In this document: piece by piece, positions 3,549 through 56,631 of the stretch
Position numbering within the stretch: the stretch's first letter is position 1
Layout: every line of letters starts with the position of its first letter
DNA from: a virus
Lineage: Duplodnaviria; Caudoviricetes
DNA length: 62,536 nt
Reading direction: 5' to 3' (one strand)
Virus record (IMG/VR): IMGVR_UViG_3300017991_000116
Span: 1 to 62,536 of that record
Translations under genes and position numbers: made by a program
The notes under the pieces: generated by a model
Database searches by the model: none
What the model was told of the DNA's origin: nothing
The model's input: the letters and a program-made list of their open reading frames with translations, nothing else

Positions 3549-5144
3549 TTACCTTCCCGCTTGGTGGCCTGGGAGACCTGACAGTTCCCTGAGCGTACCC
3601 AGATCCACTCCAACTCCGTTGTAGTCTGTCACACGTTGAGGTGACGGGGAAGGGGCTTCCTCCGACAGGGGTGTCGGGGAAACGCCACCGCCCGTCAAGC
3701 GACGGACTCGCGAACGAACGTCCTCAAGATCCTCCGTCTCGGGGGTCGATGCCACCAAGTGCTCTTGGATGATCTTGTCAACTGCTTGCTTCGAACGAGG
3801 ATTCGATGCCTCGAGGATCTTGCGTACCTCGGCCTTGCGAGGATGGGCCGAAAGGCGTTGCTCGATGTACACCTCGAGTCCGAACTCCTTGTTTGCTTCG
3901 ATGCTCTTCTCGAGCGCTTCGGCGAGCTTGTCGAGCTCACCGCGAAGGGCCTGGCTCTCGGTCCGTGCGGCCTCGAGCTCCTTCTTGTGCGCCTCTTCGC
4001 GCGCCTCGATGTTCTTGCGCGCCTCTTCCTGCTCGGCGGCTTCCTCGGCCCGGCGAGCGTGGAGCTCGTCACGAACCTCCTGCACTCGAGCCTTGAACGC
4101 GTCAGCGTTCTCGAACTGGGCGAAGTCTCCGAGCATGGAGCGGACGAGACCACCGTCGGGGTCACCAGCCAAGGTGCGCTCGAGGTAGTACTTGTAGCCC
4201 GCTTCGCGCGCCATGGATGCCAGCGATTCGATCTGCTCCCCCGACTCCTTGAGCTTCAGGTCCGCTTCGGCGAGCTTGCGGTTGAGCTCCTTGATCTCCT
4301 CGTCCTTCTTCGCGACGAGCGTGTCGGTGTCCTCGGGGAGGATGAAGGGGCGCATGATGGCGGCGATCTGCTCGATCGTCGTGCGTGCTCCGCCGATGGC
4401 CGGGTCGGCCATGAGCTGCGAGCGGATTTCCTCACGCGCCTCTGCGGACAGCTTGCCCAGATTCGCGATGATGTCCTGTTCGATCTGAGCGCGGTCTGCT
4501 GTACCGTTGGCCTCCGCCTCGGCCTCGGCTTGAACCTTGTCCGCGAAAGCCTTTGCTTGCTCTTGTTCCTTCGCCTGCGCCTCGGTGCCCATGGTGCGCT
4601 CCTTGTCCTCGCTGAAAACTTCGGGGTATGCCGTAGTGTCGGCTGGCTCCGCGACGAAGTCAAAGGTGACGAGGTTGTAGTCGTCTTGGACGACTTCCTC
4701 GCCCTTCTCATTGGTTCGCGTTGATCCGTAGCCTCGGGAAGAGACGCCGACCTTGCAGCCGGCCCGAAGCATTGCTTGAAGGTCTTTCCCTCTTGCAGTG
4801 TCCAAAGCCTCGGCCTCGCCAAGTACGATGCCGTTCTGCTGAATCTCCAACCCAGTCACGAGGTGAGAGACGCGTGAGAGCTGCGTACGCCCGTCGTTAG
4901 GATGGTCGAGCTCGCCGTAGAGCTTCCGCTCGGCCATCGCAGGATCAACTTTGCCGATCTCCCGCTCCCACAACGCGGTCGGGTAGATGCGCTTGTTCTC
5001 GGTCGCCCTTCCGGAGCGAGCGAACTCACCTCGCACAATGATCTTCCCTCCGTTGGTGCCGTCCTCGACCAACTGCAACGCGATCGGGAGAGCATCCACC
5101 AAGAGGTGGCCTTTGTGCGTGGTGTTTTCTTCGAGCTTACCCAT
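3549..5144 (-). CDS. Prohead protease (gp21-like) fused to coiled-coil scaffold
   Basis: NKRIYP, GELDHP, VSH, GVSSRGYGS, TFDFVAEP protease motifs, then a long acidic coiled coil. Confidence 0.93.
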   Translation of the reverse strand: MGKLEENTTHKGHLLVDALPIALQLVEDGTNGGKIIVRGEFARSGRATENKRIYPTALWEREIGKVDPAMAERKLYGELDHPNDGRTQLSRVSHLVTGLEIQQNGIVLGEAEALDTARGKDLQAMLRAGCKVGVSSRGYGSTRTNEKGEEVVQDDYNLVTFDFVAEPADTTAYPEVFSEDKERTMGTEAQAKEQEQAKAFADKVQAEAEAEANGTADRAQIEQDIIANLGKLSAEAREEIRSQLMADPAIGGARTTIEQIAAIMRPFILPEDTDTLVAKKDEEIKELNRKLAEADLKLKESGEQIESLASMAREAGYKYYLERTLAGDPDGGLVRSMLGDFAQFENADAFKARVQEVRDELHARRAEEAAEQEEARKNIEAREEAHKKELEAARTESQALRGELDKLAEALEKSIEANKEFGLEVYIEQRLSAHPRKAEVRKILEASNPRSKQAVDKIIQEHLVASTPETEDLEDVRSRVRRLTGGGVSPTPLSEEAPSPSPQRVTDYNGVGVDLGTLRELSGLPGHQAGR

Positions 5145-5316: not shown

Positions 5317-6339
5317 CTACTTCTTGCCCTTCTTGCCCTTCCTCTTCCTCGCCATCGTCAAAGGGGACTTCTTGCCTTTTCCCTTTCGACGCCGAGCTTC
5401 TTGGACTCCGACTTCGTCGTCCTCGTCGTCGTCCTCTTCCTCGTCGTCGTCCTCGCCGTTTCCCTCGGGGGGTTCCTCGGTGCCGGGAGGTCCGTCCGTC
5501 TCCCCCATCGGAGGCTCGTCAGTCGGCGGCTCCTCGGCCGGCGGCTCCTCGGTGGGCTCTTCCTCGCCCTCGGGCGGCATCTCGTCTTCCTTGCCGGTGA
5601 CGTCGTTGTAGAGCTGGAGTGCGTCAAGCAGCTTCGCCATGAGCTTCTTGAACATCACGTCCACCTGAGCATCGTCGCCGTCCGCAGAAGCGAGAGGGGC
5701 TTCGTCGCCGTCAGGCTCTTCGCCCTCGGGCGGCGGCATCGGGGGCTCTTCGCCCTGGTCGAGCGCGAGCGCCGTGTCGGCGGCCTGCTCGGAGAGCTTC
5801 TTCATCTGCTGCCCGACTTCGTACATGCCACGTTCGCTGATCTCCATGCCCCATGCCGTGAAGCGCTTGCCCAGCGTCTCGGCGATGACGGCGATGTTCG
5901 CGAAGCCCTTGATCTGCTCCTCGCGGCGCGAGCGCTTGATGCCCGTCACGATCTCGTTGACTTCCTCGAGCAGGGACTGCGCGCGGTTGCTGTGCGAGGT
6001 CGGGGCGCCAGTCGGGGCGTCTTCGTAGAGACGACCATCGGCCAGACGCTGGAGACGCGACTCGGAAGTCTGCGCGGGGGCGGGGGCGTCAGGCTTCGCA
6101 GCCTTGGGGCCGTGAGACGCCAGGAACTCCTGAGCGCGCGAGGCGATGAAGTCGAATGCCTCAGCAGCGTCCTTCGGCTCGTCAGGCTCGTCGACCGGCG
6201 TCTCCTCGCCTTCGTCAGAAACTTCGCCACCCTCCGGGTCGGGCTTGGGGGCGTCCTGTTCCTGATCGTCCGTCTCGTTGAACAGGCCGATGTCCTTCAG
6301 ATCTTCAGTGAGGGACGTGAGGTGCGCGCGGCTTGCCAT
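5317..6339 (-). CDS. Acidic prohead core/scaffold-like protein, possible -1 frameshift extension
   Basis: Between portal and protease; Glu/Pro-rich; N-terminal LTE motif; basic C-terminus. Confidence 0.65.
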   Translation of the reverse strand: MASRAHLTSLTEDLKDIGLFNETDDQEQDAPKPDPEGGEVSDEGEETPVDEPDEPKDAAEAFDFIASRAQEFLASHGPKAAKPDAPAPAQTSESRLQRLADGRLYEDAPTGAPTSHSNRAQSLLEEVNEIVTGIKRSRREEQIKGFANIAVIAETLGKRFTAWGMEISERGMYEVGQQMKKLSEQAADTALALDQGEEPPMPPPEGEEPDGDEAPLASADGDDAQVDVMFKKLMAKLLDALQLYNDVTGKEDEMPPEGEEEPTEEPPAEEPPTDEPPMGETDGPPGTEEPPEGNGEDDDEEEDDDEDDEVGVQEARRRKGKGKKSPLTMARKRKGKKGKK

Positions 6340-48759: not shown

Positions 48760-48881
48760 GTTGTCTCCTCGGTGTCCTGTCCTTGGCCGCGAGCCTGGGA
48801 GCCGACCCCAGCCTTCTCACCACTCACCCTGAAGGGCGTCCCCTGGACCTTTTTGGTGGTGCCCGCGTTGCTCATACCTAG

Positions 48882-48909
48882 AACATATCACATAGGAAGC
48901 GATTGTCAA
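48882..48909 (-). promoter_or_regulatory. Early-type promoter
   Basis: TTGACA-16-TATGTT, ATG 6 nt downstream. Confidence 0.7.
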
Positions 48910-48961
48910 GGCAGAACTGATCTTTTATTGATCTTTTCTTGAACGCCTAGGAAACAAGGCG

Positions 48962-49024
48962 AAAAATGCCCATCGGCACGACAGGGCGAGGGGGGTGGGG
49001 GCAGTAACCCTGGAACCGATGGGC
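48962..49024 (-). terminator. Terminator-like hairpin with C-rich loop
   Basis: GCCCATCGG...CAGGG-(CCCCCACCCCCC loop)-CCCTG...CCGATGGGC then ATTTTT. Confidence 0.55.
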
Positions 49025-49062
49025 GGAGGCAAGGAACGAGCCTCGCCGATCACTGTATCACA

Positions 49063-52232: not shown

Positions 52233-52260
52233 AACATATCGCACGGGACGTGATTGTCAA
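52233..52260 (-). promoter_or_regulatory. Early-type promoter
   Basis: TTGACA-16-TATGTT. Confidence 0.7.
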
Positions 52261-52982
52261 GGCTTGCTACGCTTCTTGCCGCCCTTGCTTCCGTACTTGT
52301 CGAAGATGTCGTCGAGCTTCCCCGAGTAGACGTCGAAGCCGTCGTCCGGATCCGGTTCGACGATGTCGTCGGTCCCTTCGGGGAGCTCCTCGCGCTCGCG
52401 CCGCTCGAGTTGCGCGGCGACGAACTGGTCGTGCTCGTCCCACCACTGTGAGTCGTCCTCGAATTCGACGTCGGGGAACAACCGGCTCGGGGGTGCCTCG
52501 CGGCCGAATTCGAAGCTCGTCTGATGGTTCGGGTAGGTGGGGCCCGAGACGATGCGCGAGACGTTCGCACGGTTCGCGGTCGCCTGGTCGAAGCTCCGCT
52601 CGTAGGAACCGTCCAGCTTGCCGTTCGACTGCGCGCGGCGCATGTCGCTCCACACGTCCATGTACGCGTCGTGCCGCCAGTGTCCCGACTCACGCGTGAC
52701 CTCGTTCTTGAAGTTCGTGTAGTCGATGTCTCCGACGACCCTGCGCATGGCGTTCGCCAGTGCCTTCTTGCCGCACTCGCTTCGCCACGGGTAGTCGGCC
52801 TTGCCGTTGAACCAGATCTTGCCCAGTCGACGGCAGTACTTCTTCTTGAAGTCCACGAGGTCTTGCTTGGCGCGGGCTCGGACCAGACAGACGTTCGGCT
52901 TGTCTCGGTGCGCCACGACGCTCAAGAATGCCCACGGGGTGAAAATCCACATGTTGAAACCTTTCTGCTCGACTTGCGCCAC
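52257..52982 (-). CDS. Conserved-looking phage hypothetical protein
   Basis: MWIFTPWAFLSVV...LVRAR...DYPWR...IDYTNFK; true start possibly 52952. Confidence 0.65.
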   Translation of the reverse strand: MAQVEQKGFNMWIFTPWAFLSVVAHRDKPNVCLVRARAKQDLVDFKKKYCRRLGKIWFNGKADYPWRSECGKKALANAMRRVVGDIDYTNFKNEVTRESGHWRHDAYMDVWSDMRRAQSNGKLDGSYERSFDQATANRANVSRIVSGPTYPNHQTSFEFGREAPPSRLFPDVEFEDDSQWWDEHDQFVAAQLERREREELPEGTDDIVEPDPDDGFDVYSGKLDDIFDKYGSKGGKKRSKP

Positions 52983-53017: not shown

Positions 53018-53045
53018 AACATATCACATGGGCTGTGATTGTCAA
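53018..53045 (-). promoter_or_regulatory. Early-type promoter
   Basis: TTGACA-16-TATGTT. Confidence 0.7.
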
Positions 53046-53054
53046 GAAGAATCG

Positions 53055-53333
53055 TCACTGGGACGGCCGGATGCTCTCGAGCACTTCGCGGCGGAAGCGG
53101 CGGAAGGTGCGGGTCGCCTTCTTGTTGAGGAGCTCGTTCGCTCGAGGGAAGACGTACCACTCGTGCAAGGCAGTGACCGCGTCCCCGAAGCGTTCGGTGA
53201 GCTCGGGGCCTTGCGAGTCGATGCCCCACCGGATGACGAAGTCCTTGCCGTCCAGACAGAGTTGATCTTTGGTGATGCCGGGGGAGCCGTCAGGGGTGAC
53301 AGCGCGGTGCTCGAGAAGGACGCGCAGGGGCAT
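53055..53333 (-). CDS. Hypothetical protein
   Basis: Start MPLRVL, TGATG overlap. Confidence 0.5.
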   Translation of the reverse strand: MPLRVLLEHRAVTPDGSPGITKDQLCLDGKDFVIRWGIDSQGPELTERFGDAVTALHEWYVFPRANELLNKKATRTFRRFRREVLESIRPSQ

Positions 53334-53683
53334 CAGTTCTCTTTCACGATGATGGCGTGGTCGGGCTCGCCGTCCCACACCGCGTAGACGCCGCACTTGA
53401 GCAACGTCTCGACGATGATCTTGCCGCACTGCTCGTAGGGCAAGCCGATGACCCCGTTCGGGGTGGGGACCGGGCCGAAGCAGATGGGGTAGCCACCGTC
53501 AGGCGTCCGGTTCTTGACCGCGTCCTCCGTGAAGAACACGCACCCTCGGACCTGGTAGCCCTTCTGGGTGATTTCGACGGCACGCTCACTGATGGCAGCG
53601 GTCGCGTCGTTGTGTCCGACCTTGAGGCCGGGACGGGCGATGAAGCCGTGGTTGCGTAGTCGGTCGAATGCTGCCTTGATCAT
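53333..53683 (-). CDS. Hypothetical protein
   Basis: AAFDRLRNHGFIAR...WDGEPDHAI; purine-rich RBS. Confidence 0.6.
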   Translation of the reverse strand: MIKAAFDRLRNHGFIARPGLKVGHNDATAAISERAVEITQKGYQVRGCVFFTEDAVKNRTPDGGYPICFGPVPTPNGVIGLPYEQCGKIIVETLLKCGVYAVWDGEPDHAIIVKEN

Positions 53684-53703
53684 GTCTCTTTCCTCTCTTG
53701 GTC

Positions 53704-53842
53704 TCGCAGCTTCAGGGAGGCGCCTCAGCAGCTACCGCGTGGGCGTCCCCTACGGTTCTCCCCTGGATCCTTAGACCCTCTAGGTTGAGATTCCCGAGGG
53801 TCGGAGAGCAAGGCTACTCGAGGCGTCTCCCTCAAGCTGCGA
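53704..53842 (-). ncRNA. Candidate structured ncRNA closed by a ~30-bp imperfect stem
   Basis: Arms 53813-53842 and 53704-53732 are complementary; inner hairpins; no convincing CDS. Confidence 0.55.
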
Positions 53843-53845
53843 CTG

Positions 53846-53941
53846 TGGTGGCCCGAGCAGGAATCGAACCTGCTTGTGGTCGTCCGTCCAGCAAATTCAG
53901 TGGGCACCGAGGCTCGACTTCCAACCGACCGACTCCGGACC
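53846..53941 (-). tRNA. tRNA-like element (96 nt) with encoded CCA and aberrant anticodon arm
   Basis: Acceptor GGTCCGG/TCGGGCC-A-CCA, T arm GCAGG-TTCGATT-CCTGC, D arm TCGG/TCGA; anticodon arm non-canonical. Confidence 0.6.
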
Positions 53942-53964
53942 GTCGTGGGTGGTGGGATCTTGGT

Positions 53965-54125
53965 TTCGCCGGCCTTATGGAGCGTAGCTCCGTGTGGCCT
54001 CCACCGGGGTTCCCTGACGCTGCCACCCAGGCAACGACCTCTCCGAGGTCCGGGGCTTTTTTCGCGGGTGCTACCCCGCTTCTTCATGAGGATCTCGCCA
54101 CCCTCACTAGCCGGCAGCAACCGGC
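53965..54125 (-). ncRNA. Candidate multi-hairpin ncRNA upstream of the tRNA-like element
   Basis: At least six consecutive hairpins within about 160 nt. Confidence 0.45.
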
Positions 54126-54134
54126 GCGTCCTTG

Positions 54135-54395
54135 TCAGTGACACTCGCACGAGCCTCCCGAGGCGACCATCCTGCCCGCCTTGCGCATGTGCTTGCAAGG
54201 CTTGCGGGCGATGGGGCTCTTCTTCTGGAACCGCCAGTTGGGGCACGTGCAGTAGAAGACCCCGTCCGCGCCGCGTCGGACTTGGTAGACCTTGTTGGGG
54301 TTGGTGAAGGAGGGGATCTCTGCGATGAGTGCTTTTTCCATGGTGGACTCCTTGCCTGACATCGGGGATTCGATCTCTTCAGGCATCGTCTTCAT
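54135..54395 (-). CDS. SWIM zinc-finger protein
   Basis: YQV...FYCTCPNW...CKHM. Confidence 0.75.
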   Translation of the reverse strand: MKTMPEEIESPMSGKESTMEKALIAEIPSFTNPNKVYQVRRGADGVFYCTCPNWRFQKKSPIARKPCKHMRKAGRMVASGGSCECH

Positions 54396-54401
54396 GTTTA
54401 G

Positions 54402-54429
54402 AAGATAACACACTGCCAGGGATTGTCAA
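54402..54429 (-). promoter_or_regulatory. Early-type promoter driving SWIM gene and RNA block
   Basis: TTGACA-16-TATCTT, ATG 6 nt downstream. Confidence 0.7.
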
Positions 54430-55047: not shown

Positions 55048-55070
55048 GAACGCGGCCGCGCTCGAGGAGG

Positions 55071-56049: not shown

Positions 56050-56631
56050 TCAGGGGGTTGCAGTCAACTTACCCCAGATCCAGTCTGCCCACATCTTCCT
56101 ACCTTTGAACGACGGATGGATCTTGTCCTCCCACATCGGCATCACGCACTGGCGCGAGTCGAGCAGCAGGATGTCCCTCTCCGTCACCATCTTCCGGACC
56201 TCGTCGGCGCCGCGCTCGGGGCGACGTGGGAGTTTGGGAGGTCCGACCCAGACCAGCCGAGCTCCGCTCTTGCCCAGCTTGGGAAGGAGCTGATCCAGGT
56301 GCCTCGAGAACGTCTTGCGGACGTGGCTCCCGAAGTGGGCGTCGTTGGTCCCCAGCACGATGAGCAGGACGTCGGGCTTGAAGGCGACGACCTGGTTGAT
56401 GTGCCGCTGGTGCGCCCGCTGGTTCCACCACATGATGCTGGTGCCCCCGACAGGATTGCCCCGTAGGACGACTCCGTCACGCCTTGCGAGCTTCGGGAGC
56501 TCGTGCATGAGCAACCAGCCGTTCGAGTCCCCGATGACCCATACACGAGTCCCCTGCGAGACGAGAGGGGGTGTCTTGGCGTGGGCGGGGGTGACGAGCA
56601 GCAGCAACAGAAGAAGGACGCGTCCGATCAT
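56050..56631 (-). CDS. Secreted SGNH/GDSL hydrolase
   Basis: Signal peptide (AHA), GDSN, GTND, DKIHP. Confidence 0.85.
   Translation of the reverse strand: MIGRVLLLLLLLVTPAHAKTPPLVSQGTRVWVIGDSNGWLLMHELPKLARRDGVVLRGNPVGGTSIMWWNQRAHQRHINQVVAFKPDVLLIVLGTNDAHFGSHVRKTFSRHLDQLLPKLGKSGARLVWVGPPKLPRRPERGADEVRKMVTERDILLLDSRQCVMPMWEDKIHPSFKGRKMWADWIWGKLTATP

What the first reader, a model, noticed from the sequence alone, without database searches (positions are those of the whole stretch)
53684..54134. 450-nt non-coding RNA cassette punctuated by a tRNA-like element, downstream of a SWIM zinc-finger gene
Seen: this is the largest gap without a credible CDS in a tightly packed genome. On the minus strand it reads promoter (54402-54429), SWIM gene, multi-hairpin RNA, CCA-ended tRNA-like element, then a 140-nt RNA starting 3 nt after the CCA. 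Established: RNase P and 3'-end nucleases cut at tRNA-like folds, and this is used to punctuate transcripts. Inference: the tRNA mimic may be a processing signal that releases two novel ncRNAs, possibly acting with the SWIM protein. This is the best candidate for an undescribed system here.
Basis: partly seen in the sequence, partly recalled or inferred. Interest (0 to 1): 0.8.

Follow-up and report, generated by a model that had tools for sequence, protein, structure and literature searches.

The report
Anticodon-less tRNA-like element inside phage operon
An uncultured phage carries, between two small genes, a non-coding stretch holding a tRNA-derived element without an anticodon arm and then a very long RNA hairpin; it most likely marks where the transcript is cut, but it occurs in this phage alone and no RNA data exist.

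Summary
Window 53684-54134 is the largest non-coding gap in this 62.5-kb fragment of a high-GC phage with a T4-type capsid. It lies inside a three-gene unit bounded by two promoters of one phage-wide family.

The gap holds a 96-nt CCA-ended tRNA-like element (53941-53846, minus strand). It has a 7-bp acceptor stem and a perfect T arm, and its last 28 nt are identical to a real tRNA-Arg(TCT). It has no anticodon arm, and ARAGORN (default) and the Rfam tRNA model do not recognise it.

Three nucleotides after the CCA starts the best inverted repeat of the whole window. It is a ~27-bp stem capped by two hairpins (z = -6.2) and ends about 12 nt before the ribosome-binding site of the next gene. The 193-nt 5' part folds no better than shuffled sequence.

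The cassette was absent from 29 related phage records and from 18 loci with homologues of the zinc-finger gene. No variants and no RNA data exist.

Best reading: a tRNA-derived processing mark plus a processing or stabilising leader hairpin, not two trans-acting RNAs working with the SWIM protein. The closest known analogue is T4's RNAC/RNAD, with no homology. Interest is modest.

The parts
54402..54429 (-). Sigma-70-type promoter (TTGACA-16-TATCTT, TG extension) that starts the transcription unit
   Evidence: It is a member of the CTTGACAAT family: 13 exact copies, all on the minus strand, against 0.15 expected.
54135..54341 (-). Small SWIM-type zinc-finger gene (68 aa from the ATG at 54341, SD AAGGAG; the longer GTG ORF runs to 54413)
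   Evidence: P0001, 68 aa. CxCxnCxH is invariant in a 31-sequence alignment. There are 493 representatives at E<=0.001. Pfam SWIM gives E=0.0095 and 15.9 bits, below its cut-off.
53942..54134 (-). 5' part of the spacer: several GC-rich hairpins, no terminator on this strand, folding not clearly beyond chance
   Evidence: z = -1.9. No minus-strand terminator. Flat codon-position GC.
53846..53941 (-). tRNA-derived, CCA-ended tRNA-like element: acceptor GGTCCGG/TCGGGCC (two G-U pairs), T arm GCAGG-TTCGATT-CCTGC, discriminator A plus CCA. The middle 61 nt have no anticodon arm and are predicted to form one long central arm.
   Evidence: 28-nt identity to a tRNA-Arg(TCT). The three-helix fold is -38.3 kcal/mol, against -25.7 with a forced D arm. 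Not recognised by ARAGORN default or Rfam.
53700..53842 (-). Hairpin domain starting 3 nt after the CCA: a ~27-bp stem (arms 53842-53820 and 53726-53704 plus a 6-bp extension, two 1x1 mismatches, one bulge) closing a three-way junction with two hairpins
   Evidence: z = -6.2.. (top inverted repeat of 45). (2nd of 532 windows). 4 G-U pairs, and a better fold on the minus strand (-83.1 against -78.4).
53333..53699 (-). Ribosome-binding site (GAGAGGAAAG) and DUF6891 gene (116 aa, ATG at 53683) directly behind the hairpin
   Evidence: Pfam PF21831, E = 1.1e-14.
53055..53333 (-). Probable third gene of the unit (about 92 aa). Its ATG overlaps the DUF6891 stop codon (TGATG).
   Evidence: Read from the ORF 53055-53429. 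Not analysed further.
53018..53045 (-). Next promoter of the same family (TTGACA-16-TATGTT, TG), which bounds the unit

Best explanation
The gap is a transcribed, non-coding spacer inside a three-gene early-type operon: promoter 54429, then the SWIM gene, the spacer, the DUF6891 gene and a 92-aa gene.

Its core is a tRNA-derived element that has lost the anticodon arm but keeps what tRNA-end-processing enzymes read: a 12-bp acceptor/T-stem stack, a canonical T loop and an encoded ACCA. Host RNase P would cut at its 5' end (53942|53941). An endonuclease plus 3' exonucleases would trim just after the CCA (53846). The element therefore splits the transcript.

The ~27-bp-stem hairpin that starts 3 nt after the CCA is then the 5' end of the downstream DUF6891 mRNA. 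It acts as an RNase III-type processing stem and/or a 5'-terminal stabilising hairpin, and it leaves the ribosome-binding site free.

Shown: the sequence anatomy, its non-coding nature, its tRNA descent, the promoter layout and its uniqueness. Inferred: transcription, every cleavage, and any benefit to the phage.
For: - Non-coding.
- One transcription unit: the gap holds none of the 13 CTTGACAAT boxes and no minus-strand terminator.
- The tRNA-like features are beyond chance (0 of 300 shuffles). The 3' 28 nt are identical, in register and including the CCA, to a tRNA-Arg(TCT) of a Latescibacterota MAG. That was the only exact 24-mer hit in 185,579 species genomes.
- The two acceptor positions that differ from that tRNA are C-to-U and A-to-G, which keep pairing as G-U.
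- The hairpin is the best inverted repeat of the window, z = -6.2. It begins 3 nt after the CCA and ends about 12 nt before the SD. The RBS is unpaired in the 451-nt MFE.
- G-U pairs and fold energies favour the minus strand.
- Established knowledge, seen as an abstract in a search listing: in E. coli, RNase E cuts 1-3 nt after an encoded CCA and RNase P makes the 5' end (PMC2190699).
- Recalled, not from a call: RNase P accepts acceptor/T-stem minihelices with RCCA, and 5'-terminal hairpins stabilise bacterial mRNAs.
- Parallel arrangement in a capsid relative (G026, capsid protein 67% identical). A 186-nt spacer starts directly on the CCA of tRNA-Leu (z = -5.45). It contains a stem of about 19 bp, extended by 3 more pairs, that closes two hairpins and ends just before tRNA-Arg(CCT).
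Against: - No homologue exists, so there is no covariation or conservation test.
  - DNA search of 29 related records gave only 14-23-nt chance-level matches, in 4 of 29.
  - The covariance model of the hairpin hit only its own record, 1 of 30.
  - Exact-pattern scans of viral and metagenome contigs found nothing.
- The neighbouring proteins have no relatives by word-indexed search.
- The true relatives (G011, G015) have ordinary small genes upstream of the one shared neighbour.
- The element sits in a hypervariable accessory region where junk from recent recombination is plausible.
- The 5' 193 nt have no clear role.
- The hairpin's rank is high but not unique: a coding window at 52637-52786 scored z = -4.9 in the coarse scan.
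- The stretch just after the CCA (CAG) is not the AU-rich kind of site that RNase E prefers (recalled).
- The host and its RNases are unknown.
Confidence: 0.45

Rival explanations
1. Neutral relic. A former phage tRNA-Arg gene had its D/anticodon region scrambled by a recent rearrangement. The surrounding spacer and hairpin are leftovers of a lost tRNA cluster or of recombination, with no selected role. It may still be cut by RNase P by default.
For: - There is no anticodon arm in any register (my reading; ARAGORN needs -ps80 and gives a poor fold).
- The Rfam tRNA model is silent.
- The locus lies in a hypervariable region not shared with 10 fully compared records.
- tRNA content varies widely among the records searched: 0 to 5 tRNAs, and 6 of 20 records have any.
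- Another phage (G001) has a sub-threshold, 106-nt tRNA-like element inside its tRNA cluster.
- The 5' part is not significantly structured.
Against: - Decay should hit the T arm and acceptor too, yet the 3' 28 nt are identical to a working tRNA and all 7 acceptor pairs hold.
- 451 nt of junk is unusual in a genome where the next largest gap is 334 nt.
- The hairpin is placed exactly between the CCA and the RBS.
- None of these points excludes a very recent event.
Confidence: 0.3
2. The cassette yields stable trans-acting small RNAs, comparable to T4's RNAC/RNAD. One example would be the CCA-ended tRNA-like RNA acting as a decoy or sponge for host tRNA-binding enzymes or tRNA-targeting defence nucleases, possibly together with the SWIM protein.
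For: - T4 places two stable RNAs of 119 and 139 nt directly after tRNA-Arg.
- T4 RNAC is itself a tRNA-like RNA with a T arm and an acceptor-like stem, supported by covariation (19 of 46 pairs).
- The roles of RNAC and RNAD are still unknown (passages in PMC3014915 and PMC9697503).
- The window's element is compact, CCA-ended and predicted to be very stable.
Against: - The RNAC covariance model matches only the T arm locally (8 bits, E = 0.25).
- There is no 3'-end signal for the 3' RNA.
- No SWIM synteny: 0 of 18 loci.
- No recognisable aminoacylation identity set: U3-G70 instead of G3-U70, and no anticodon (my reading plus recalled identity rules).
- No conservation.
Confidence: 0.12
3. attP-type or recombination scar. 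Only the 3' 28 nt come from a host tRNA-Arg gene, as in integrating elements that carry the tRNA 3' end. The upstream 'acceptor strand' is coincidence.
For: - Exact identity is confined to the T arm, the acceptor 3' strand and the CCA.
- The 5' half resembles that tRNA only generically.
Against: - No integrase among the 82 ORFs scanned, though the record is only 42% complete.
- The phage has a T4-type capsid and portal and a replication module typical of lytic phages.
- By my own estimate (no call), a 7-of-7 pairing upstream strand at tRNA distance would arise by chance about 3-5% of the time.
- A GG-containing D-like segment is also present.
Confidence: 0.05
4. The gap encodes a protein, for example the 121/173-codon arginine-rich minus-strand ORF 53725-54246.
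For: An open frame spans most of the gap.
Against: - Its GC3 is 0.64, against 0.82-0.88 in real genes.
- No Pfam or PHROG hit at E<=1.
- Its arginine-rich composition is typical of out-of-frame GC-rich DNA.
Confidence: 0.02

Closest known systems
Phage T4 stable RNAs RNAC (species 1, 139 nt) and RNAD (species 2, 119 nt) behind tRNA-Arg
   Same: - Small structured non-coding RNAs placed within 1-6 nt of a tRNA-Arg-type 3' end, in a phage with a gp23-type capsid.
- RNAC is itself a tRNA-like RNA with a T arm and an acceptor-like stem but a non-canonical middle.
- Its function is unknown (PMC3014915 and PMC9697503 passages).
- It is not represented in Rfam 15: only tRNA-Arg was matched in that stretch.
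   Different: - No homology: the RNAC model hits only the T arm.
- T4's RNAs sit in a tRNA cluster and follow a working tRNA-Arg. Here the tRNA-like element is solitary, stands between protein genes, and is followed by an mRNA leader.
- RNAC is conserved across Tevenvirinae (748 records). This cassette is a singleton.
tRNA-like processing signals in mRNAs: plant mitochondrial t-elements, tRNAs inside bacterial operons, mascRNA-type elements
   Same: A tRNA-shaped fold inside a longer transcript, predicted to be cut by tRNA-processing enzymes and so to define mRNA ends. Sources: title and abstract of PMC1920247 and abstract of PMC2190699, both seen in the listing. mascRNA is recalled.
   Different: Those cases have mapped RNA ends. 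Here nothing is mapped, and a phage operon context is not among the cases I saw.
RNase III processing stems (T7/T3 early transcripts, rRNA operon stalks) and 5'-terminal stabiliser hairpins
   Same: A stem of more than 20 bp with small internal mismatches lies between cistrons, directly upstream of an RBS.
   Different: The cleavage is untested. The top of the stem is a three-way junction, not a simple loop. The comparison rests on recalled knowledge.
tmRNA tRNA-like domain
   Same: The predicted topology is an acceptor/T-arm stack with one long helix in place of the D and anticodon arms, ending in ACCA. A bona fide phage tmRNA exists in G001, a phage that shares one neighbouring gene.
   Different: There is no tag reading frame and no pseudoknots. 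The third acceptor pair is U3-G70, not G3-U70. ARAGORN default and the Rfam tmRNA models are silent.
CCA-ended tRNA mimics and CCA-anchored hairpins in phage tRNA arrays
   Same: Anticodon-less CCA-ended elements, and ~20-bp stems that start on a CCA with variable tops.
   Different: Those sit in large tRNA arrays and several are conserved families. This one is solitary, lies inside an mRNA operon, and shares no sequence with them.

Membership tests
Canonical tRNA (Rfam RF00005 / ARAGORN) | 7-bp acceptor stem, discriminator base and CCA, plus a T arm with a TPsiC-type loop | tested here: met
   GGTCCGG/TCGGGCC, A, CCA; GCAGG-TTCGATT-CCTGC.
Canonical tRNA (Rfam RF00005 / ARAGORN) | Anticodon arm (5-bp stem, 7-nt loop) and overall cloverleaf recognised by tRNA models | tested here: not met
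   ARAGORN default finds none. Only at -ps80 does it give a poor 'tRNA-Ala' fold. No tRNA match at E<=10. RF00005 has 0 matches in the record. No 5-7-5 register pairs (my reading).
Canonical tRNA (Rfam RF00005 / ARAGORN) | D arm | tested here: inconclusive
   A 4-bp stem (UCGG/UCGA) with a GG-containing 11-nt loop can be drawn. However, that fold is 12.6 kcal/mol worse than a three-helix fold.
tmRNA (one-piece or permuted) | tRNA-like domain plus a tag reading frame and pseudoknots | tested here: not met
   ARAGORN default finds none. Only implausible calls appear at -ps50. No Rfam tmRNA hit at E<=10.
T4 RNAC (species 1 RNA) | Match to a covariance model built from 5 Tevenvirinae RNAC sequences (46 pairs, 19 with compensatory changes) | tested here: not met
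   Only an 18-nt local match to the T arm: 8 bits, E = 0.25. The model is shallow and AT-rich, so its power is limited.
tRNA-like processing signal (t-element / mascRNA type) | RNA ends made by RNase P at the 5' side and by 3' processing at the tRNA-like fold | not testable with these tools
   No RNA holder was listed, and the laid runs are DNA contigs.
RNase III processing stem | About two turns or more of double-stranded RNA | tested here: met
   9+6+6+6 bp, interrupted by two 1x1 mismatches and one bulge. Best inverted repeat of the window.
RNase III processing stem | Staggered cleavage in the stem | not testable with these tools
   No RNA data.
SWIM zinc finger (PF04434), for the upstream gene | CxCxnCxH motif | tested here: met
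   C31, C33, C49 and H51 are invariant in 31 sequences.
SWIM zinc finger (PF04434), for the upstream gene | Pfam gathering score | tested here: not met
   15.9 bits against a cut-off of 19.6, E = 0.0095.
attP carrying a tRNA 3' end | Integrase gene in the element | tested here: not met
   No integrase among the 82 ORFs scanned against Pfam. The record is 42% complete, so this is not final.
Bacterial Y RNA (YrlA) | Ro60/TROVE gene nearby and a closed tRNA-like module | tested here: not met
   No TROVE domain among the 82 ORFs. No Rfam hit. The element has a free ACCA end.

The most novel reading that the evidence does not exclude
The phage makes a stable, CCA-ended, anticodon-less tRNA-like RNA from inside an mRNA operon. 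It would be a functional counterpart of T4's still unexplained RNAC/RNAD, acting in trans. For example, it could be a decoy for tRNA-targeting defence nucleases or for host tRNA-binding enzymes. Its excision would at the same time create a hairpin-capped, stabilised mRNA for the downstream gene.
Probability: 0.12. Interest if true: 0.6.

Novelty: new variant of a known kind. Interest (0 to 1): 0.3.

Why it matters
If the element is really cut out, it would be a phage example of tRNA-style 'punctuation' of a protein-coding operon. That principle is known from organelles and a few bacterial operons. It would also add a solitary case to the CCA-ended tRNA mimics seen in phage tRNA arrays, whose function is an open question, as is that of T4's RNAC/RNAD after 50 years. 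As it stands it is a single, unconserved locus in an uncultured phage with an unknown host, so it cannot yet carry much weight.

Tried and rejected
Known RNA families:
- Rfam at gathering threshold gave 0 hits on the whole window. At E<=10 on 1.2 kb it gave only three chance-level hits.

Searches for relatives of the cassette:
- INPHARED phages, blastn: no match.
- Exact-pattern scans: viral contigs 0; metagenome contigs 0 twice; genome contigs 1, a tRNA-Arg.
- Related loci through the neighbouring genes: DUF6891 gave 0 distinct loci; the 195-aa gene matched no pattern; the 241-aa gene gave 0 confirmed loci.
- The 295-aa gene gave 2 loci whose downstream synteny breaks at once. G001 later proved to share only 2 genes with the window.
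- Word-indexed protein searches for the SWIM and DUF6891 proteins returned only the window's own proteins.

Sequencing runs:
- No RNA holder was listed.
There were no variants, so microdiversity gave no covariation.
- Parts without cover say nothing.

Models and scans that found nothing:
- The hairpin covariance model R1 found nothing in 29 other records or in 18 SWIM loci.
- The T4 RNAC model R2 found only the T arm.
- A minihelix scan of 10 fetched records found ordinary tRNAs, one 106-nt tRNA-like element in G001 and one likely chance hit in G009. It found nothing like the window's element.

Readings considered and dropped:
- An intron-containing tRNA: ARAGORN -i gave only an implausible 222-nt 'intron' model.
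- tRNA-Sec or a class II tRNA: no anticodon arm in any register.
- A permuted tmRNA: no complementary 5' strand after the CCA.
- Plus-strand terminator-like sites at 54041-54079: 3 found against 1.8 expected, not significant.

Earlier notes of this scan: nothing for this place or this sequence.

Full report
**What the window is.** The window is a whole IMG/VR virus record of 62,536 bases. It is classed as linear, with CheckV completeness 42% and 62% G+C. Pfam finds a gp23-type major capsid protein, a T4-type portal, a prohead protease, family-A DNA polymerase, RecA, DnaB, primase, ThyX, dCMP deaminase and other replication genes. It finds no integrase among the 82 ORFs I selected by GC3. Nearly all genes lie on the minus strand. 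The nearest cultured phages share less than 35% capsid identity.

**Is the gap non-coding?**
- Between the stop of the zinc-finger gene (54135) and the start of the DUF6891 gene (53683) lie 451 nt without a GC3-supported ORF. This is the largest such gap; the next is 334 nt.
- All six frames of the gap have flat codon-position G+C (0.59-0.67). The four flanking genes have GC3 of 0.82-0.88.
- The four long ORFs that cross the gap hit nothing in Pfam or PHROGs at E<=1.

**Transcription layout.**
- It belongs to a family. CTTGACAAT occurs 13 times exactly, always on the minus strand, against 0.15 expected. The neighbouring copies are at 55048 and 53046.
- The gap contains no copy of this box and no minus-strand terminator.
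- The unit is therefore: promoter, SWIM gene, gap, DUF6891 gene, and a probable 92-aa gene whose ATG overlaps the DUF6891 stop. The next promoter follows at 53045-53018.
- Transcription of the gap is inferred from this layout. No RNA holder was listed, so expression could not be examined.

**The upstream gene.**
- The SD AAGGAG and the 68-aa protein on record (P0001) point to the ATG at 54341 as the start.
- An exhaustive HMMER search finds 493 representatives at E<=0.001, many of them 56-110 aa.
- In an alignment of 31 of these, C31, C33, W36, C49 and H51 are invariant. That is the CxCxnCxH signature of SWIM fingers.
- Pfam SWIM itself scores below its cut-off (15.9 against 19.6 bits).

**The tRNA-like element (53941-53846, minus strand).**
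- Reading, it has a 7-bp acceptor stem GGUCCGG/UCGGGCC (two G-U pairs), a T arm GCAGG-UUCGAUU-CCUGC, discriminator A and CCA.
- A scan for this combination finds it once in the window and in 0 of 300 dinucleotide shuffles. Without the CCA it appears in 4 of 300.
- Its last 24 nt have one exact match among one genome for each of 185,579 species. That match is the T arm, acceptor strand and CCA of a tRNA-Arg(TCT) in a six-tRNA array of a Latescibacterota MAG, in register. BLAST extends the identity to 28 nt.
- tRNA-Arg genes of two phages examined here have the same T arm with one loop difference: G001, found through a shared neighbouring gene, and G026, a capsid relative. So the element descends from a tRNA, probably a tRNA-Arg.
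- It is not a tRNA, however. ARAGORN at default finds nothing. At 80% stringency it draws a poor 'tRNA-Ala' from a different 5' strand. Rfam lists no tRNA or tmRNA match at E<=10, and RF00005 has no match in the record.
- I checked every register of the 61 nt between the acceptor and the T arm, and none gives a 5-7-5 anticodon arm.
- The thermodynamic model prefers a three-helix form: acceptor, one 16-bp central arm and T arm, at -38.3 kcal/mol. With a forced D arm the fold is -25.7 kcal/mol.
- By recalled identity rules it lacks the marks for charging: no anticodon, and U3-G70 rather than G3-U70.

**The 3' domain.**
- Three nucleotides after the CCA begins a stem of 9+6+6+6 bp, with two 1x1 mismatches and one bulge. 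It closes a three-way junction with two hairpins.
- Its z-score is -6.2, and none of 200 shuffles is as stable.
- Its arms are the top-ranked of 45 inverted repeats in the window.
- In a coarse sliding scan (150-nt windows, 20 shuffles each, 532 windows from 62536 down to about 22,700) it ranked second.
- Four G-U pairs and the fold energies favour the minus strand (-83.1 against -78.4).
- The stem ends about 12 nt before GAGAGGAAAG-N5-ATG of the DUF6891 gene, and that stretch is unpaired in the 451-nt MFE.
- No terminator or other 3'-end signal follows it. It therefore reads as the leader of the DUF6891 message rather than as a free 140-nt RNA.

**The 5' domain (54134-53942).** It has GC-rich hairpins, but its fold is only marginally better than shuffles (z = -1.9; 8 of 200 as stable). 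I assign it no function.

**Is it conserved?** No relative of the cassette was found.
- Capsid-based search gave 35 related viral loci at 51-88% identity.
- I searched the whole records behind 27 of these, leaving out 8 contigs of at most 8.1 kb. I added the 2 records found through the 295-aa neighbour, for 29 records in all.
- DNA search gave short 14-23-nt matches in 4 of the 29 (best E = 0.005), none at the element or hairpin scale.
- A covariance model of the hairpin matched only its own record, 1 of 30.
- Gene-by-gene comparison with 10 fetched records shows that window 46-57 kb is a hypervariable accessory region. The only shared nearby gene (52257-52982) has ordinary small genes upstream in G011, and a 340-nt gap without a tRNA-like element in G015.
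- Runs that hold the sequence (sediment and seawater, 4 studies) carry identical fragments.
- So neither covariation nor population variation can be used.

**Is it linked to the SWIM gene?** No. A profile-based scan found 18 viral loci with SWIM homologues. None of the 18 has a tRNA, a match to the hairpin model or a minihelix-type element within 1.5 kb. By a crude ORF count none has a large downstream gap.

**What it resembles.**
- In T4, tRNA-Arg is followed after 1 nt by RNAD (119 nt) and after 6 more nt by RNAC (139 nt).
- RNAC folds as a tRNA-like RNA with a T arm and an acceptor-like stem. The fold is conserved with compensatory changes in 19 of 46 pairs across five Tevenvirinae.
- Its role is unknown (passages read in PMC3014915 and PMC9697503).
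- Rfam 15 does not cover it, so a blank in Rfam does not mean the kind is unknown.
- A model built from the five RNAC sequences matches only the T arm of the window's element (8 bits, E = 0.25). This is therefore an analogy, not membership.
- In G026, a capsid relative, a 186-nt spacer starts directly on the CCA of tRNA-Leu (z = -5.45). It holds a stem of about 19 bp, extended by 3 more pairs, that closes two hairpins just before tRNA-Arg(CCT). This is the same architecture without sequence similarity.
- Earlier AI notes of this scan describe CCA-ended tRNA mimics and CCA-anchored ~20-bp hairpins in phage tRNA arrays. I treat them as leads only, and none shares sequence with this locus.

**Mechanism I commit to (0.45).** The operon transcript is cut by RNase P at the 5' side of the tRNA-like element and just after its CCA. 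In E. coli, RNase E cuts 1-3 nt after an encoded CCA (PMC2190699, abstract seen in the listing). The downstream message then begins with the long hairpin, which serves as an RNase III-type processing stem and/or a 5' stabiliser. The anatomy is shown; every cleavage is inferred.

**Rivals.**
- A recently disabled tRNA gene with no selected role (0.30).
- An attP-like tRNA fragment (0.05).
- Coding sequence (0.02).

**Verdict.** It is a singleton with no expression or conservation data, and the proposed SWIM-RNA system has no support. Novelty: a new variant of a known kind (tRNA-like processing element or phage tRNA mimic). Interest: 0.3.

Noticed in passing
window, 13 sites on the minus strand: 29405, 41165, 42305, 46757, 47813, 48910, 52261, 53046, 54430, 55048, 57901, 59883, 62102 (5' ends): An extended -35 box, CTTGACAAT, occurs 13 times exactly, always on the minus strand and mostly in front of small genes, against 0.15 expected. 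It is a phage-wide promoter family for the host sigma-70-type polymerase and divides the accessory region into units of about 1 kb.
   Followed up: partly
L059:1421-1577 (= G008 96031-96187, minus strand): A capsid relative (72% identity, 49.5% GC) carries two adjacent tRNA genes with anticodon CTA (amber-suppressor type; ARAGORN labels them tRNA-Pyl) next to a tRNA-Leu(TAA). This may point to TAG recoding or suppression in that phage.
   Followed up: no
G001 4052-4411 and 5406-5511 (L098): The phage record that shares the 295-aa neighbour gene encodes a complete tmRNA (tag ANDNNALAAVA) next to a tRNA cluster (Arg-TCT, Met, Met). Inside that cluster lies a 106-nt non-canonical tRNA-like element with a 7-bp acceptor and a T arm (RF00005 26.7 bits, below the cut-off).
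   Followed up: partly
L056:1315-1500 (= G026 56285-56470): A strongly structured 186-nt spacer (z = -5.45) starts directly on the CCA of tRNA-Leu(CAG). It contains a stem of about 19 bp plus 3 more pairs that closes two hairpins and ends just before tRNA-Arg(CCT).
   Followed up: partly
window 48760-49062 and 52637-52786: Two other windows fold far better than shuffles in the coarse scan: 48887-49036, in a 303-nt intergenic gap that also holds a CTTGACAAT box (z = -4.2), and 52637-52786, inside the 241-aa gene (z = -4.9). Only 20 shuffles were run per window, so these values are rough.
   Followed up: no
L075:1909-2172 (T4 70908-71171) and L094-L097: T4 RNAC homologues occur in 748 phage records. 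Five diverse copies support a tRNA-like four-helix fold with 19 covarying pairs. Rfam 15 matched only the neighbouring tRNA-Arg, so RNAC and RNAD appear to have no curated family.
   Followed up: partly
L002 (Latescibacterota MAG, 2871842-2872665): A tight array of at least six tRNA genes (Gln, Lys, Arg-TCT, Glu, Ile-TAT, Cys). At least Lys, Arg, Glu and Ile have an encoded CCA, and some spacers are only 0-2 nt. Whether it lies in a prophage was not checked.
   Followed up: no
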